Origin: an uncultured archaeon
GTDB lineage: Archaea; Asgardarchaeota; Lokiarchaeia; Sigyniarchaeales; SOKP01
NCBI GenBank assembly: GCA_964632315.1
Contig: CAZWEM010000065.1
Coordinates: 1-14,291 of the forward strand
Length of the DNA stretch: 14,291 nucleotides
Direction of reading: 5' to 3'
The notes under the pieces were generated by a model that was given only the letters and a program-made list of their open reading frames with translations, made no database searches and was not told where the DNA came from. The translations under genes and the position numbers were made by a program. Position 1 is the first letter of the stretch; each line of letters starts with the position of its first letter. Shown in pieces: positions 2,388-6,097 of this stretch.

Positions 2388-3446
2388 TTATCTATAAGGA
2401 AAAAAGGCAGTTATTATATTATCTCTATAATTAGCTTTTATTATTTTTGCTTTTACAACTTGCCCTAGCAATTGTTCAGAGTAGGAAAATGGCTTGTTAA
2501 GTAGTAATTTAATTCCTTGCTTTTCATTAATTTTTGCAATGCATTCCCTGTCCCATCGCCCTTTAGATACAATTTTTATGTCTACAAGATCACCTTTTTT
2601 TAAAGATGTTAGCTGAATGGATTTTCTTTTGTGAATTCCAAAGTCTTGAGGCCCAAGTTTTAGTTTTAAATCATACTTCCTTTCTAATTTTGATAATTGA
2701 TGATAAAAATAGCTCCATGATTTTGGTCTAACGTTTTTTAATTTCCTTCCCGTTTTGTATAGTAAATATTTTTGGATTCCTATACCAATTTTTTCTTGGG
2801 AATATTTTGCATTTCTAAATTCGACCACTAATTTTATTATGTCTTGAATATCCTTATCATTTTTTCCAGGAAACCATACTGGTGCAAGTAAAACATTTAT
2901 TTTTGATTTTAAAAGCAATTTGATGTTGCTCAAGAGGGAATTTAAATCATAATTCGTACAATTACACAAGTTATTTGCTAAATTGGCATTTAATGTGTTC
3001 AAACTTAGATTTAACCTTGTAAGATTCAGTTCATCCAATTTGCTAATTACTTTTTCATTTAGCAACAATCCATTACTCTGCATTGAGATGATTTTTACTC
3101 CCTTTAAAGCCCATAATCTTTCCAATAGTTCATATAATTCACCATATAATAATATCTCCCCATATGGTGCGATATGAATTTCAATATCATTCTCTCCTTT
3201 TACTTGTATGACTTCTTTAACTTTTTCAACTAGACTTTCAGCACTAACGATAAAATTTGTGGAATAATCTCCAGCACTGACAAAACAGTATCTACATTTG
3301 AGATTACAGAGAGTAAGCGGTTTTATTTCTATGATATTGGTTCCTCGATCAATAATACCTAAGAAATCTATGCCAAATAATGGGATATTTGATTCATTAT
3401 TCACGTAAATTAGGTCTTGATGCATGTTTACTTCTCTATCTATCAT
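2388..3446 (-). CDS. Radical SAM protein with C-terminal TRAM-like domain (archaeal COG2100-like)
   Basis: CxxxCxxC motif CNLKCRYC preceded by IDRGTNIIEIKP; GE and SMQSNG motifs; beta-rich basic C-terminus (KKGDLVDIKIV…GQVVKAKIIKA). ATGA overlap with the pelota stop. Confidence 0.85.
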   Translation of the reverse strand: MIDREVNMHQDLIYVNNESNIPLFGIDFLGIIDRGTNIIEIKPLTLCNLKCRYCFVSAGDYSTNFIVSAESLVEKVKEVIQVKGENDIEIHIAPYGEILLYGELYELLERLWALKGVKIISMQSNGLLLNEKVISKLDELNLTRLNLSLNTLNANLANNLCNCTNYDLNSLLSNIKLLLKSKINVLLAPVWFPGKNDKDIQDIIKLVVEFRNAKYSQEKIGIGIQKYLLYKTGRKLKNVRPKSWSYFYHQLSKLERKYDLKLKLGPQDFGIHKRKSIQLTSLKKGDLVDIKIVSKGRWDRECIAKINEKQGIKLLLNKPFSYSEQLLGQVVKAKIIKANYRDNIITAFFPYR

Positions 3447-4516
3447 AATTTATAATGTAAAATGGCTACAAGAGCACCCAAATCATCAATTTGCTTTCCA
3501 GTAGGATGTTCGCTGCTTAAAATGTTAACTTTTCCTTGAGCTTTTTCAACTTTAATTATTATATCCTCGATACGGAGTTTATGATCTTTTGAAGCTCCTC
3601 TAATAAGGGAATCCACTATGAAGAGTTCTTTAATGGCCTTATGTGTAGCTGCTTTTTCAACTTCTTCAAAGCCTATGGCAATTAAATCAGGATCTGATGC
3701 AAATAATTGAAAAATTTCTTCAATTTTCTGAGTTTCTTGAATTATTTTCACATTTGATTTTATTTGAATTAATTCCTTTGATTTTAGTATCTCGTTAATA
3801 GCACTCTCAGTACCGGAACTAGCATGAAAACTCTTCACTTTTTGCATCTCGCTAAATTTTATTTTTTCTCGTAAATAATTGGAAAAATGATCTCGTATAT
3901 TTCCAGGTCCACATACAATTATTATGTCAATTTCGGTTTTCTCCATATTTTGCACGAGAACTTTTGCTATTTGATCATAAAAATCATTATATGCTTTATT
4001 TCGATGTGACTGTTCATATCTCTTACCAGGAATATTTTTTTTAATCGTCGCAATATGATTATGACTGTAATTGGTTACTAAAGAAATCGTTGCTAAACCT
4101 GTTTCAATGGCAATTATTAACATATTAAATTTATCTTCAAACTTAGAAGCTTCTTTAAGTCGATTCAGCTCACTTTTTAACCATTTCTCTTTCTTAATTG
4201 ATAATATATTTCCAATTTCGATATTAAAGGTATGATATGTTCCATAACTTACTAGATCTTCTGGACCTTCTAAGATGGTTCCCTTAATCCTTAAGCGATT
4301 TGAAAATTCATGGAATCCTACTGATTCTACCCGTAACTTTAAACTCATTGTTTTGCGCTCTCCTTTCGTTCCTTCTTTTAATACTACTCTTCTTTGAGTC
4401 CGACTTGTAATCTCATCATCTTTGGAAATGACATTATAGAGAGACCAAAGATCATTTAAAGTTTCTACTTTAATTGTAAATTCTTCGAGATTTTTGTCTG
4501 ATTCTAATATCTTCAA
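3443..4516 (-). CDS. pelA: Archaeal pelota (Dom34) ribosome rescue factor
   Basis: ETLNDLWSLYNVI, FHEFSNRLRIKGTI, GTYHTFNIEIG, IPGKR, CGPG and SSEHPTGKQIDDLGALVAIL motifs; 357 aa; TTG start. Confidence 0.96.
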   Translation of the reverse strand: MKILESDKNLEEFTIKVETLNDLWSLYNVISKDDEITSRTQRRVVLKEGTKGERKTMSLKLRVESVGFHEFSNRLRIKGTILEGPEDLVSYGTYHTFNIEIGNILSIKKEKWLKSELNRLKEASKFEDKFNMLIIAIETGLATISLVTNYSHNHIATIKKNIPGKRYEQSHRNKAYNDFYDQIAKVLVQNMEKTEIDIIIVCGPGNIRDHFSNYLREKIKFSEMQKVKSFHASSGTESAINEILKSKELIQIKSNVKIIQETQKIEEIFQLFASDPDLIAIGFEEVEKAATHKAIKELFIVDSLIRGASKDHKLRIEDIIIKVEKAQGKVNILSSEHPTGKQIDDLGALVAILHYKL

Positions 4517-4617: not shown

Positions 4618-4640
4618 AAAAAAAAGAAAAATACAAAAAA
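4618..4640 (-). terminator. Putative oligo-T terminator of the WH2 microprotein gene
   Basis: Minus strand reads TTTTTTGTATTTTTCTTTTTTTT starting 3 nt after the TAA stop. Confidence 0.6.
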
Positions 4641-4643
4641 TGC

Positions 4644-4796
4644 TTATTGTTCTCCTAAGGCTTCTTTAATTTTCTCCAGTTCTGCCATACGTTTCTTTTT
4701 TTCTTCTTCGCGTTTCTTCATATCTTCTTCATCCACCTTTTGGAGAGATACTCCTTTCTTGATCTCGTTTTGTAATTCCTTATCGATTGGAGTCAA
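4644..4796 (-). CDS. 50-aa stand-alone WH2-motif microprotein (putative G-actin-binding peptide)
   Basis: Manual translation: MTPIDKELQNEIKKGVSLQKVDEEDMKKREEEKKKRMAELEKIKEALGEQ*. TTG start with AAGGTG about 10 nt upstream, an in-frame stop just upstream (4805-4803) that fixes the start, and a T-tract downstream. It fills an otherwise empty 440-bp gap. LxxEIKKGVSLQKV fits the WH2 consensus LLxxIRxGxxL(K/R)KV. Confidence 0.78.
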   Translation of the reverse strand: MTPIDKELQNEIKKGVSLQKVDEEDMKKREEEKKKRMAELEKIKEALGEQ

Positions 4797-4806
4797 CTTA
4801 ATTTAA

Positions 4807-4875
4807 CACCTTGGTTTAAAAAATAGTTCGATATTTTATACAGATATTATAATACTTTTTCTATATAAGTTTTAG
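4807..4875 (-). promoter_or_regulatory. RBS and BRE/TATA-like promoter for the WH2 microprotein gene
   Basis: AAGGTG at 4812-4807. Upstream minus-strand AAAAAGTATTATAATAT and AAAACTTATATAG are A-rich BRE + TATA-like boxes. Confidence 0.5.
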
Positions 4876-4954: not shown

Positions 4955-6097
4955 TCACTTTATTCCCAATTCTTCTTTAAAGACATCAATTGGAGTCTTT
5001 TCAGTAATTTGTCGATATTTAGTTTCCATAAAAGGTGTTGTTTCCATAATATATATTTTCATATCGTGGTTTAGGGCAAACTCTTGAAAATCATTATTTA
5101 AAGCAATATCAACTGGGAAATTTATTTCGTCATTTCTTATTTCAAACAATTTTTGGGGTAGTCTCATTTCAGAAATGAAATAATTTTTAATGAATTCCAA
5201 TCCTCGTTGATTTCCCTCTACAGAGGCAAAAATGAGGAGCCCTTCCTCTGTGATTTCTTCAAAAGATTTTTTAATTGATTTAGCTCGTCGGTTATATCTC
5301 TTACTCAACTGCCAAAAATCTTTTGTTAGCACAGTGCATAAATGTATCTTCAATTGTACTTTATCGGCTACTCTTTGAATTAGTTTAAGCGCCAACTCTT
5401 TACTGTTTTTCACGGAAGCAATTGATCCATCTTGTAAAAAATATCCTCTAACTTTTAAGTACTCACTATTGGGCATACAATATTCGAATTCATTAAAATT
5501 AATGAAATCTGCCCCAATCTCTTCTAAAAAGTATATAAGGTCTTCTAATTCTTTGATGTGGAATGTATCTGGAATAGCTGGTACTTCAGCTCCGACCTTC
5601 ATTCCCTTATTTAATGCAAACTTGATATTATTCCAAATTTCTCGAGGAGGGTTAAATCGAATCTCATCTAATCCCGCATCTGCCAATTTTTGAGCAATAT
5701 GTTCATTGAAATTCAATCCATTAGTATATAAATGGACATGAAATCGTTTTCCCTTTTTCTGCTTGATAAAGTTGATGTAATCAATCGTTTTTTTAACATT
5801 TGGCTCAAACAGAGGATCACCTCCCGTAATACTAATCCCAGTTGATCTTGATGTGTTTATTTCTTGAAGTAAATCTAATTTGGTGATTAGAGGAATTTCG
5901 TTGGTGAAACTGAATTTTTTATTTTTTCTCTCTTCAGATATAGGACAATACCAAAAGCAATGTTGAGGATTTTGACATACGCCGTTTAGGAATAAAACCG
6001 TTTTTTTACCTTGTAGACATAATTTACATCCTTTTGGGATGCCTCTTCCCTTAATATAATAAGAATTCCTTTTTGATTGGACGATTCTTTTTTTCAC
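4955..6097 (-). CDS. Radical SAM protein (archaeal COG2108-like) with extra N-terminal CxxC
   Basis: PKGCKLCLQGKKTVLF, cluster motif CQNPQHCFWYCP, GISITGGDP, HVHLYTNG, AGLDEIRF and GAEVPAIP motifs. GTG start overlaps the upstream TGA (GTGA). Confidence 0.88.
   Translation of the reverse strand: MKKRIVQSKRNSYYIKGRGIPKGCKLCLQGKKTVLFLNGVCQNPQHCFWYCPISEERKNKKFSFTNEIPLITKLDLLQEINTSRSTGISITGGDPLFEPNVKKTIDYINFIKQKKGKRFHVHLYTNGLNFNEHIAQKLADAGLDEIRFNPPREIWNNIKFALNKGMKVGAEVPAIPDTFHIKELEDLIYFLEEIGADFINFNEFEYCMPNSEYLKVRGYFLQDGSIASVKNSKELALKLIQRVADKVQLKIHLCTVLTKDFWQLSKRYNRRAKSIKKSFEEITEEGLLIFASVEGNQRGLEFIKNYFISEMRLPQKLFEIRNDEINFPVDIALNNDFQEFALNHDMKIYIMETTPFMETKYRQITEKTPIDVFKEELGIK

What the first reader, a model, noticed from the sequence alone, without database searches (positions are those of the whole stretch)
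4644..4796. Unannotated 50-aa stand-alone WH2 / beta-thymosin-like peptide with its own expression signals
Seen in the sequence: an ORF absent from the supplied track (whose shortest entry is 61 aa), MTPIDKELQNEIKKGVSLQKVDEEDMKKREEEKKKRMAELEKIKEALGEQ, flanked by an RBS, TATA-like boxes and a long T-tract. Established: WH2 is an amphipathic helix followed by an LKKV/LKKT-type motif, as in WAVE LLEAIRKGIQLRKVEE (recalled from memory). LQNEIKKGVSLQKVDE aligns to this without gaps, sharing L, I, KG, L and KV. The tail is an E/K/R-rich, probably single-alpha-helix segment. Inference: a monomer-sequestering or monomer-delivering actin-binding peptide comparable in size to beta-thymosins, and easily missed by gene callers because of its length and TTG start.
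Basis: partly seen in the sequence, partly recalled or inferred. Interest (0 to 1): 0.88.

Follow-up and report, generated by a model that had tools for sequence, protein, structure and literature searches.

The report
Lokiarchaeal WH2-like actin-binding microprotein gene
A real, strongly conserved 50-residue protein of one order of Loki-type Asgard archaea resembles the short WH2/beta-thymosin peptides that hold actin monomers in eukaryotes; relatives are fused to profilin and a ten-repeat relative co-purifies with Asgard actin in published data, but actin binding by this peptide itself is untested.

Summary
The ORF at 4644-4796 (-) exists as described. It is a real gene: median dN/dS is 0.06 across 30 orthologues, and a promoter-like box, an AAGGTG ribosome site and T-tracts are conserved.

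It occurs in 142 of 153 other genomes of one Lokiarchaeia-type order and was not found elsewhere in the phylum.

Pfam WH2 and Thymosin models do not reach threshold. Three independent comparisons still point the same way:
- Family profiles rank WH2 peptides co-crystallised with actin (N-WASP, Spire, MIM) at the top of the PDB.
- A Loki-only profile retrieves a genuine 6xWH2 protein from 1.84 billion proteins.
- Language-model features place it next to thymosin clusters.

AlphaFold gives a short helix, an extended LQKV linker and a long helix.

The same module occurs as arrays of about 10 repeats, after bona fide Asgard profilin domains (1, 2 or 4 copies), and in LRR, Ras and RHH proteins. In published Lokiarchaeum ossiferum co-IP data, the ten-repeat protein is enriched with Lokiactin as strongly as actin itself. 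The stand-alone relative is expressed but not significantly enriched.

Best reading (about 0.55): a WH2/beta-thymosin-like Lokiactin monomer binder.

This scan has flagged the same family before on other DNA.

The parts
4644..4796 (-). Coding sequence of the 50-residue protein (TTG start, TAA stop)
   Evidence: dN/dS 0.06; 114 homologous clusters of 48-52 aa
4755..4781 (-). Residues 6-14: short N-terminal amphipathic helix (L8, I12 on one face), the WH2-helix equivalent
   Evidence: AlphaFold2 helix 6-14; L8 at least 90% conserved and I12 invariant; aligned ungapped to the N-WASP and Spire WH2 helix
4734..4745 (-). Residues 18-21, LQKV: the LKKV/LKKT-type motif inside the extended linker (residues 15-22)
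   Evidence: L18 is the only invariant column across all module forms; K20 at least 90% conserved; the linker is predicted non-helical
4650..4730 (-). Residues 23-49: long charged C-terminal helix with a terminal hydrophobic stripe; the most conserved part of the protein
   Evidence: AlphaFold2 helix 23-49, pLDDT 92-95; R29, E30-32, K33-35, R36, E39, L40, K42, K44, A46, L47 and G48 at least 90% conserved
4807..4812 (-). Shine-Dalgarno-like AAGGTG, 10 nt upstream of the start
   Evidence: (A)AGGTG is kept at the same distance in most orthologous loci
4846..4873 (-). Conserved promoter-like box (BRE/TATA-like AAACTTATA..., then TATTATAAT), about 50-75 nt upstream of the start
   Evidence: Nearly identical element in about 30 loci of two genera although synonymous sites are saturated. 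Function as a promoter is inferred
4618..4640 (-). T-tracts directly after the stop codon (archaeal terminator-like)
   Evidence: T-rich tracts follow the stop in all loci printed. Termination is inferred
3443..4516 (-). Downstream neighbour: pelota (eRF1 domains 1-3). A conserved neighbour, not shown to be a functional partner
   Evidence: Pfam. Adjacency holds in 29 of 29 loci of the first set, in further loci of the same family, and in two other families where pelota is only 39-42% identical. It is absent in a fourth family and in G138
4955..6097 (-). Upstream neighbour: radical SAM protein (conserved neighbour within the family only)
   Evidence: Pfam; synteny

Best explanation
The gene encodes a stand-alone WH2/beta-thymosin-like module that binds monomeric Lokiactin.

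Proposed mechanism (inferred by analogy):
- The extended segment G15-D22 runs up the actin face. The invariant L18 sits in a hydrophobic pocket, and K20 pairs with the acidic pair that corresponds to rabbit actin D24/D25.
- The 27-residue charged helix reaches towards the pointed face, as the C-terminal helix of thymosin beta-4 does. It thereby buffers or sequesters monomers. If it is only loosely attached, it would instead hand monomers to barbed ends.

Shown here: the gene is real and strongly constrained; the motif, its spacing and the secondary-structure layout fit; the module is fused to profilin; a tandem-repeat relative associates with Lokiactin.

Inferred: direct binding by this peptide, the binding mode, and whether the effect is sequestering or delivering.
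For: 1. Family-only profiles searched against 177,635 distinct PDB sequences put WH2 peptides solved on actin at the top.
- A1: N-WASP 3xWH2 first (E 0.0026); MIM and N-WASP also in the top 7.
- A4: Spire DDD (E 0.022), N-WASP (0.04), Spire (0.34), N-WASP (0.88), which is 4 of the top 6.
- All these alignments are ungapped over the helix-G-LxKV stretch.

2. The A4 profile searched against 1.84 billion proteins gave 89 hits at E <= 1e-3. These were family members plus one protein (P0196, E 3.7e-4, six stretches on profile positions 4-24) that Pfam calls WH2 x6 (E 5e-25). Pfam WH2 is in turn the best Pfam hit of the Loki tandem protein P0117 (E 0.0055, below cut-off).

3. The ESM-feature neighbours among named clusters are thymosin (PF01290) clusters, scores 0.88 and 0.86.

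4. AlphaFold2 predicts helix 6-14, extended 15-22, helix 23-49, mean pLDDT 88.

5. The module follows Asgard profilin domains in 1, 2 or 4 copies. The L041 N-terminal domain matches solved Asgard profilins 5zza, 5zzb, 5yed and 7pbh at E 6.5e-10 to 1e-5.

6. The module forms tandem arrays of about 10 repeats.

7. In the L. ossiferum Lokiactin co-IP (bioRxiv 10.1101/2025.11.30.690169, Supplementary Table 2), entry GNAMCCOK_04085 has 56.41 kDa, 44 peptides, log2 ratio 4.53 and adjusted p 0.002. Actin itself is 4.44 and 2DGel1 is 3.97. I assign this entry to the 488-aa tandem-repeat ORF by gene-index interpolation from three mapped genes (predicted 4083-4085) and by mass (56.45 kDa).

8. The peptide is 76-86% identical where pelota is 57-67% and the radical SAM protein 48-56%; dN/dS is 0.06.

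9. The cleft-forming stretches of Lokiactin are invariant across Asgard actins. Asgard gelsolins carry WH2-like linkers that contact actin D25 (PMC9433394).
Against: - Pfam WH2 (PF02205) finds nothing in the six-frame genome at E <= 10. It matches only 2 of 49 module sequences at E < 0.1.
- Pfam Thymosin is not hit.
- Each single WH2 domain scores only 5-14 bits against the family profiles. The significant E-values come from summing near-identical repeats. One unrelated repeat protein (P0198) passed in the same way.
- hhalign against one WH2 stretch gives P 0.0024 but only 12% probability.
- The stand-alone relative in L. ossiferum (assigned to GNAMCCOK_02436, 8.24 kDa) is detected but only weakly enriched with actin: log2 0.57, adjusted p 0.105.
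- The module also sits in LRR, Ras, RHH, zinc-ribbon and hexapeptide-transferase proteins with no obvious actin link.
- Divergent family members lose the glycine or change the helix-to-motif spacing.
- Adjacency to pelota is conserved across three families.
Confidence: 0.55

Rival explanations
1. The module is a general charged-helix adaptor or oligomerisation and linker element with no direct actin contact. On this view the WH2 resemblance of about 17 residues is chance or convergence of a simple pattern, and the tandem protein's co-IP is indirect or due to stickiness of a K/E-rich protein.
For: - The module is promiscuous: it sits between LRR or Ras domains and RHH or zinc-ribbon domains, and before a hexapeptide transferase.
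- The tail, not the WH2-like half, is the most conserved part.
- Its hydrophobic a/d-type stripe could drive coiled-coil pairing (inference).
- 13 of 49 modules weakly match DUF3006 through the K/E helix.
- Single-domain WH2 scores are at noise level.
Against: - The only invariant column across all forms is the Leu of the LxKV motif, not a tail residue.
- Unbiased searches pick WH2 proteins specifically.
- The module is repeatedly fused to profilin.
- Co-IP enrichment equals that of actin itself, with 70% sequence coverage.
Confidence: 0.22
2. The peptide binds filamentous rather than monomeric Lokiactin (side binding, stabilising or bundling). The tandem-repeat relatives would act as nebulin-like rulers or as Spire/Cobl-like nucleators.
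For: - The ten-repeat protein is pulled down with actin far more strongly than the stand-alone form or profilin. This fits avidity along a filament.
- The repeat period is about 45 residues.
Against: - The motif type and the profilin fusions are typical of monomer binders.
- No assay here distinguishes G-actin from F-actin.
Confidence: 0.13
3. The peptide works with pelota or the translation machinery (ribosome rescue, aEF1-alpha), as suggested by its conserved position just upstream of pelota.
For: - The peptide-then-pelota order is kept in three families, down to 39% pelota identity.
- There is a weak profile hit to an archaeal EF-1beta segment (1gh8_A, E 0.17-0.58).
Against: - The gene has its own conserved promoter-like box and T-tract terminators, and about 130 nt separate it from pelota.
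- Adjacency is lost in a fourth family and in G138, while the peptide persists.
- This organism's own EF-1beta lacks the motif.
- None of the fused partners is a translation factor.
Confidence: 0.07
4. The ORF is not a gene (a chance ORF or the shadow of the opposite strand).
For: It is short, starts with TTG, and a 75-codon ORF overlaps it on the plus strand.
Against: - dN/dS is 0.06 with variation concentrated at third codon positions.
- It occurs in about 150 genomes.
- Peptides of the L. ossiferum relative are detected by mass spectrometry, with 43.5% coverage.
Confidence: 0.01

Closest known systems
Eukaryotic WH2 domain (Pfam PF02205; N-WASP, WAVE, WIP, MIM, Spire, Cordon-bleu)
   Same: - A short amphipathic helix, a Gly-containing linker and an L-x-K-V motif at the same spacing; HMMER alignments to N-WASP and Spire are ungapped.
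- The Leu is invariant.
- It occurs in tandem arrays and next to actin-regulator domains.
   Different: - It is below Pfam thresholds.
- Gln replaces the first basic residue.
- A long, highly conserved charged helix always follows.
- The gene is stand-alone.
- It is confined to one archaeal order.
- Homology versus convergence is unresolved.
Beta-thymosins and beta-thymosin/WH2 repeat proteins (thymosin beta-4, ciboulot, actobindin; Pfam PF01290)
   Same: - Size of about 45-50 residues and free-standing.
- N-terminal helix, extended LKKT-type segment and C-terminal helix layout.
- Nearest named ESM-feature clusters are thymosin clusters.
- Some family members begin with a thymosin-like N-terminus (the thymosin sequence is from memory).
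   Different: - No Pfam Thymosin match.
- The motif is LQKVDE, not LKKTET.
- The C-terminal helix is longer and far more charged.
WH2-like LKKT-type linkers inside Asgard two-domain gelsolins (PMC9433394; bioRxiv 10.1101/2025.11.30.690169)
   Same: Archaeal proteins in which a four-residue L-x-x-V motif runs along the actin face and contacts D25.
   Different: In the gelsolins the motif is a linker after a gelsolin domain that fills the cleft. Here a free peptide, or a repeat, supplies its own helix.
Arcadin-2 C-terminal peptide of Pyrobaculum (PMC5173319)
   Same: A short archaeal helix that binds the hydrophobic groove of an archaeal actin and sequesters it; described as a functional analogue of thymosin beta-4.
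   Different: - Unrelated sequence, and reversed orientation in the groove.
- Part of a larger protein in the arcade cluster.
- Its target is crenactin.
Trypanosomatid profilin with a WH2-like insertion (PMC10907219), and tandem-WH2 nucleators (Spire, Cobl, VopL/VopF)
   Same: Precedents for profilin combined with a WH2-like element (title and abstract only) and for arrays of WH2 repeats. Both architectures occur in the Loki family.
   Different: - In the Loki proteins the module follows profilin in 1-4 copies and ends in an unknown C-terminal domain.
- The repeat period is about 45 residues, not 30-35 (the latter figure is from memory).

Membership tests
WH2 domain (Pfam PF02205) | Match to the Pfam WH2 model at or above the gathering score (23.1 bits) | tested here: not met
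   There is no WH2 hit for the peptide at E <= 1 or E <= 10. There is no match in the six-frame genome at E <= 10. Only 2 of 49 modules match, best E 0.088. The best Loki protein, P0117, scores 16.8 bits.
WH2 domain (Pfam PF02205) | Short N-terminal amphipathic helix, then an extended linker carrying an L-[KR]-[KR]-[VT]-type motif with a conserved Leu | tested here: met
   AlphaFold2 predicts helix 6-14 and an extended segment 15-22. L8 is at least 90% conserved, and I12, G15 and L18 are invariant within the family. L18 is invariant across all module forms. The second motif position is Gln, not basic.
WH2 domain (Pfam PF02205) | Sequence similarity to accepted WH2 domains beyond chance | tested here: inconclusive
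   Rank-based support is strong. WH2 chains are 3 of the top 7 (A1) and 4 of the top 6 (A4) among 177,635 PDB sequences. A Pfam-positive 6xWH2 protein is retrieved at E 3.7e-4 from 1.84 billion proteins. However, single domains score only 5-14 bits, and hhalign gives 12% probability.
WH2 domain (Pfam PF02205) | Direct binding to actin in the cleft between subdomains 1 and 3 | not testable with these tools
Only indirect evidence exists: the ten-repeat relative co-immunoprecipitates with Lokiactin, while the stand-alone relative is not significantly enriched.
WH2 domain (Pfam PF02205) | Occurrence in actin-regulatory architectures (tandem arrays, next to profilin-recruiting or actin-binding domains) | tested here: met
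   Arrays of about 10 repeats exist. Profilin is followed by 1, 2 or 4 modules. The module also occurs in LRR, Ras and RHH proteins with no known actin link.
Beta-thymosin (Pfam PF01290) | Match to the Pfam Thymosin model | tested here: not met
   No hit. The only link is ESM-feature neighbours with PF01290 in 52% and 26% of members, at scores below 0.9.
Beta-thymosin (Pfam PF01290) | Free-standing peptide of about 40-50 residues with an N-helix, an LKKT-type segment and a C-helix | tested here: met
   The protein has 50 residues and is monocistronic by its signals. The predicted layout matches.
Beta-thymosin (Pfam PF01290) | Conserved LKKTET hexapeptide | tested here: not met
   The family consensus is LQKVDE.

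The most novel reading that the evidence does not exclude
Lokiarchaeia of this order have a whole toolkit built on one WH2/beta-thymosin-type actin-monomer-binding module. This would be a third class of Asgard actin regulators beside profilin and gelsolin. It would be deployed in four ways:
- as an abundant free peptide (thymosin-like buffer);
- as ten-repeat arrays (nucleator or filament ruler);
- as profilin-(module)n fusions (monomer delivery);
- in GTPase, LRR and RHH proteins, which could couple actin state to signalling or transcription in an MRTF-like way.

In the strongest form, the module is homologous to eukaryotic WH2, so this regulator type predates eukaryotes or was exchanged with them.
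Probability: 0.18. Interest if true: 0.9.

Novelty: new variant of a known kind. Interest (0 to 1): 0.72.

Why it matters
[quoted passage not shown] A conserved WH2/beta-thymosin-like module in free, tandem and profilin-fused forms would add a third regulator class. One member already tops a published Lokiactin co-IP list without comment in the passages of that paper read here.

It also gives a cheap, direct experiment (a 50-residue synthetic peptide) on how eukaryote-like actin-monomer control arose. Because the family is limited to one order, it also tests whether WH2-type motifs arise easily by convergence.

Tried and rejected
- **Complex prediction of the peptide (A3) with its own Lokiactin (A2).** I got no verdict and did not attempt it by another route.
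- **Search for longer fused forms with the search for homologous proteins (A3, 'longer').** Nothing at E <= 1e-3; low-complexity words crowd the candidates. Fused forms were found through genome and representative searches instead.
- **Foldseek of the peptide model against the PDB.** No match.
- **Sequencing runs.** No RNA holder is listed; the DNA holders are salt-marsh and marsh metagenomes.
- **Bacterial-type promoter and terminator scan.** Not informative for an archaeon.
- **Gene neighbours of the tandem-repeat and profilin-fusion genes.** No actin-related context.
- **EF-1beta hit (1gh8_A).** Rejected as chance, because this organism's own EF-1beta lacks the motif.
- **P0198.** A repeat-protein false positive of the profile search.
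- **Profile-profile test against a diverse WH2 alignment.** Not done. The only tool-supplied WH2 protein (P0196) has near-identical repeats.

Full report
**Observation.** It lies between a radical SAM gene (4955-6097) and a pelota gene (3443-4516), all on the minus strand. The window is 29-35% G+C. It is contig C65 of a 4.45-Mb, 119-contig Asgard genome that carries two 381-residue Lokiactin paralogues and three further actin-family genes.

**It is a real gene.** A word-indexed search found 114 clusters of 48-52-residue proteins at 70-100% identity. All are unnamed or 'hypothetical', and they come from Promethearchaeota/Lokiarchaeota-type MAGs.

In 30 orthologous loci, nucleotide diversity at codon positions 1/2/3 is 0.106/0.056/0.374. 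Median dN/dS is 0.06 at dS of about 1.

The peptide is 76-86% identical where the flanking pelota is 57-67% and the radical SAM protein 48-56%.

Three non-coding elements are kept across about 35 loci although synonymous sites are saturated:
- an upstream A/T-rich box with two TATA-like elements (window 4846-4873);
- AAGGTG close upstream of the start (4807-4812 in the window);
- T-tracts after the stop (4618-4640).

Their function is inferred.

**Distribution.** With profile A1, 150 of 400 genomes of the phylum have a match. Excluding the window's own genome, the counts are 125/134, 1/1, 12/14 and 4/4 in the four families of the window's order. In other orders and classes there are only E of about 1e-3 noise hits. 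The own genome has a single copy.

**Is it WH2-like?** The formal Pfam test fails:
- The peptide gets no WH2 or Thymosin hit.
- PF02205 finds nothing in the six-frame genome at E <= 10.
- Only 2 of 49 module sequences reach E < 0.1.

Three unbiased comparisons nevertheless converge.

(i) Profiles built only from the archaeal family, searched against all 177,635 distinct PDB sequences, put WH2 peptides crystallised on actin at the top. With A1, N-WASP 3xWH2 is first (E 0.0026), with MIM and N-WASP also in the top 7. With the broad profile A4, the hits are Spire DDD (0.022), N-WASP (0.04), Spire (0.34) and N-WASP (0.88), which is 4 of the top 6. These alignments are ungapped across helix, Gly and LxKV.

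(ii) A4 against 1.84 billion representatives gave 89 proteins at E <= 1e-3. Of the 16 hits whose sequences I fetched, all are family members except two repeat proteins. One of these, P0196, is matched six times on profile positions 4-24, and Pfam calls it WH2 x6 at E 5e-25. The other, P0198, is unrelated. Conversely, WH2 is the best Pfam hit of the Loki tandem protein P0117 (E 0.0055, below cut-off).

(iii) ESM-feature neighbours among named clusters are thymosin (PF01290) clusters, at scores of 0.88 and 0.86, which count as leads only.

There are caveats. Single WH2 domains score only 5-14 bits. The significant E-values sum near-identical repeats. hhalign against one WH2 stretch gives P 0.0024 but 12% probability. 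One comparable hit, to an archaeal EF-1beta, is chance, because this organism's own EF-1beta lacks the motif.

**Anatomy.** AlphaFold2 with the family alignment (mean pLDDT 88) gives helix 6-14, an extended segment 15-22 that carries LQKV, and helix 23-49. This is the beta-thymosin/WH2 layout.

I12, K14, G15 and L18 are invariant, and L8, K13, V16 and K20 are nearly so. Across all module forms the only invariant column is L18, the Leu of the LxKV motif.

The tail is not a composition-only single alpha helix. R29 to G48 is the most conserved stretch, and it ends in a hydrophobic stripe at M37, L40, I44 and L47.

**Larger proteins with the same module.** Genome and representative searches show the module in several architectures:
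- as about 10 tandem repeats with a period of about 45 residues, in proteins of about 480-490 residues (L037, L038, P0115-P0122);
- after a profilin domain in 1, 2 or 4 copies, followed by a small unknown C-terminal domain (L040-L042, P0138, P0143, P0123);
- after LRR or Ras-family GTPase domains, and next to RHH or zinc-ribbon domains.

The profilin assignment is solid for L041. Its N-terminal domain matches the solved Asgard profilins 5zza, 5zzb, 5yed and 7pbh at E 6.5e-10 to 1e-5.

**Experimental link to actin.** This was a lead from an earlier scan note, and I checked it here. G138 is a single 6,035,313-bp contig.

Its two 2DGel gelsolin genes (3.040 and 4.784 Mb) and its Lokiactin gene (3.925 Mb) can be paired with GNAMCCOK_02589, 04136 and 03343 of Supplementary Table 3 of bioRxiv 10.1101/2025.11.30.690169. 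This gives about 850-920 genes per Mb.

The tandem-repeat ORF at 4.727 Mb is thus predicted to be gene 4083-4085. Its 488-residue product weighs 56.45 kDa.

The paper's Lokiactin co-IP sheet lists GNAMCCOK_04085 with 56.41 kDa, 44 peptides, 70.5% coverage, log2(actin/IgG) 4.53 and adjusted p 0.0021. That is above actin itself (4.44) and 2DGel1 (3.97). The passages of the paper I read do not mention it.

The divergent stand-alone relative in G138 (L104:2713-2919:+) has 69 residues from a GTG start and weighs 8.24 kDa. Its predicted gene index is about 2437-2443. It matches GNAMCCOK_02436 (8.24 kDa), which has 5 peptides, 43.5% coverage, log2 0.57, P 0.042 and adjusted p 0.105.

That protein is therefore expressed: its proteome mean is 18.4, above the profilin Pro2 at 17.4. 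It is not significantly enriched with actin. For scale, Pro2, a bona fide monomer binder, reaches only log2 1.07.

The identification of both entries rests on gene order and mass, not on sequence.

**Target site.** The Lokiactin stretches that form the barbed-face cleft are invariant across 22 Asgard actins. By my mapping to rabbit actin (whose sequence is from memory), Y143, G146, T148, E334, I341, I345, L346, L349, T351 and M355 are identical, D24/D25 are E/D, and Y169 is F. Published structures show that Asgard gelsolins use WH2-like linkers contacting actin D25, which is conserved in Loki actins (PMC9433394).

**Rivals.** The peptide-then-pelota order is kept in three families, down to 39% pelota identity. 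However:
- the gene has its own signals;
- the adjacency is lost in a fourth family and in G138;
- no fusion partner is a translation factor.

A generic charged-helix adaptor remains the main rival, because of the promiscuous fusions and the highly conserved tail. F-actin rather than G-actin binding cannot be excluded.

**Comparison with what is known.** The literature held here reports only WH2-like four-residue linkers inside Asgard gelsolins and arcadin-2 as a thymosin-like sequesterer of crenactin. No stand-alone or tandem WH2/thymosin-like archaeal protein is described.

I file the module as WH2/beta-thymosin-like in how it probably works. I do not file it as a member of PF02205 or PF01290, since their models are not met.

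This scan has flagged the same family repeatedly on other DNA, with similar follow-up verdicts.

**Verdict.**
- Observation: confirmed.
- Interpretation: partly supported.
- Confidence that the module binds Lokiactin in a WH2-like manner: about 0.55.
- Novelty: a new variant of a known kind.
- Interest: 0.72.

Noticed in passing
window:1092-1565 (-): A 157-residue protein with a helical N-half (weak Pfam CCDC53/WASH-subunit hit, E 0.035), long Pro/Gly tracts and a C-terminal amphipathic helix. That helix carries the same L-R-x-A-[IV]-M-S-E-[LI]-K pattern that immediately precedes the module in LRR-, GTPase- and RHH-fused proteins (L039, L045, P0169, P0190). It lacks the LxKxDE motif and the charged helix.
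   Followed up: partly
L043:777-1844 (+), L044:1289-2257 (-), L045:1054-1590 (+), L047:934-1290 (-): The module is joined to ribbon-helix-helix (DUF6290/NikA-like) DNA-binding domains, sometimes after a Ras-family GTPase. If the module binds actin, these could couple actin state to transcription. This is speculative.
   Followed up: no
L041:725-1531 (+), L042:1301-2065 (-), L040:948-1790 (+): Profilin-module proteins end in a conserved domain of about 55 residues and unknown family. The same domain also follows the module in a protein with a hydrophobic N-terminus, which may be membrane-spanning (P0142).
   Followed up: no
L038:1864-3327 (-): In the published Lokiactin co-IP table, several unannotated L. 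ossiferum proteins (GNAMCCOK_00333, 02751, 04250) are enriched more than actin itself. A 4.41-kDa microprotein (GNAMCCOK_03085) is enriched at log2 2.66.
   Followed up: no
window:3443-6097 (-): The gene order radical SAM, then peptide, then pelota is conserved in all 29 loci of the first set, and the order holds in further loci of that family. The peptide-pelota pair persists in two further families.
   Followed up: yes
window:10311-13322 (+): A 1003-residue protein with hydrophobic segments near both ends (possibly a signal peptide and a C-terminal membrane anchor; judged by eye) and a prenyltransferase-type alpha-alpha toroid domain.
   Followed up: no
L003:1495-2640 (-), L004:1471-2616 (+): The genome has two Lokiactin paralogues that are 82% identical to each other. 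Orthologues of the first are 97-99% identical across genera of the family.
   Followed up: partly
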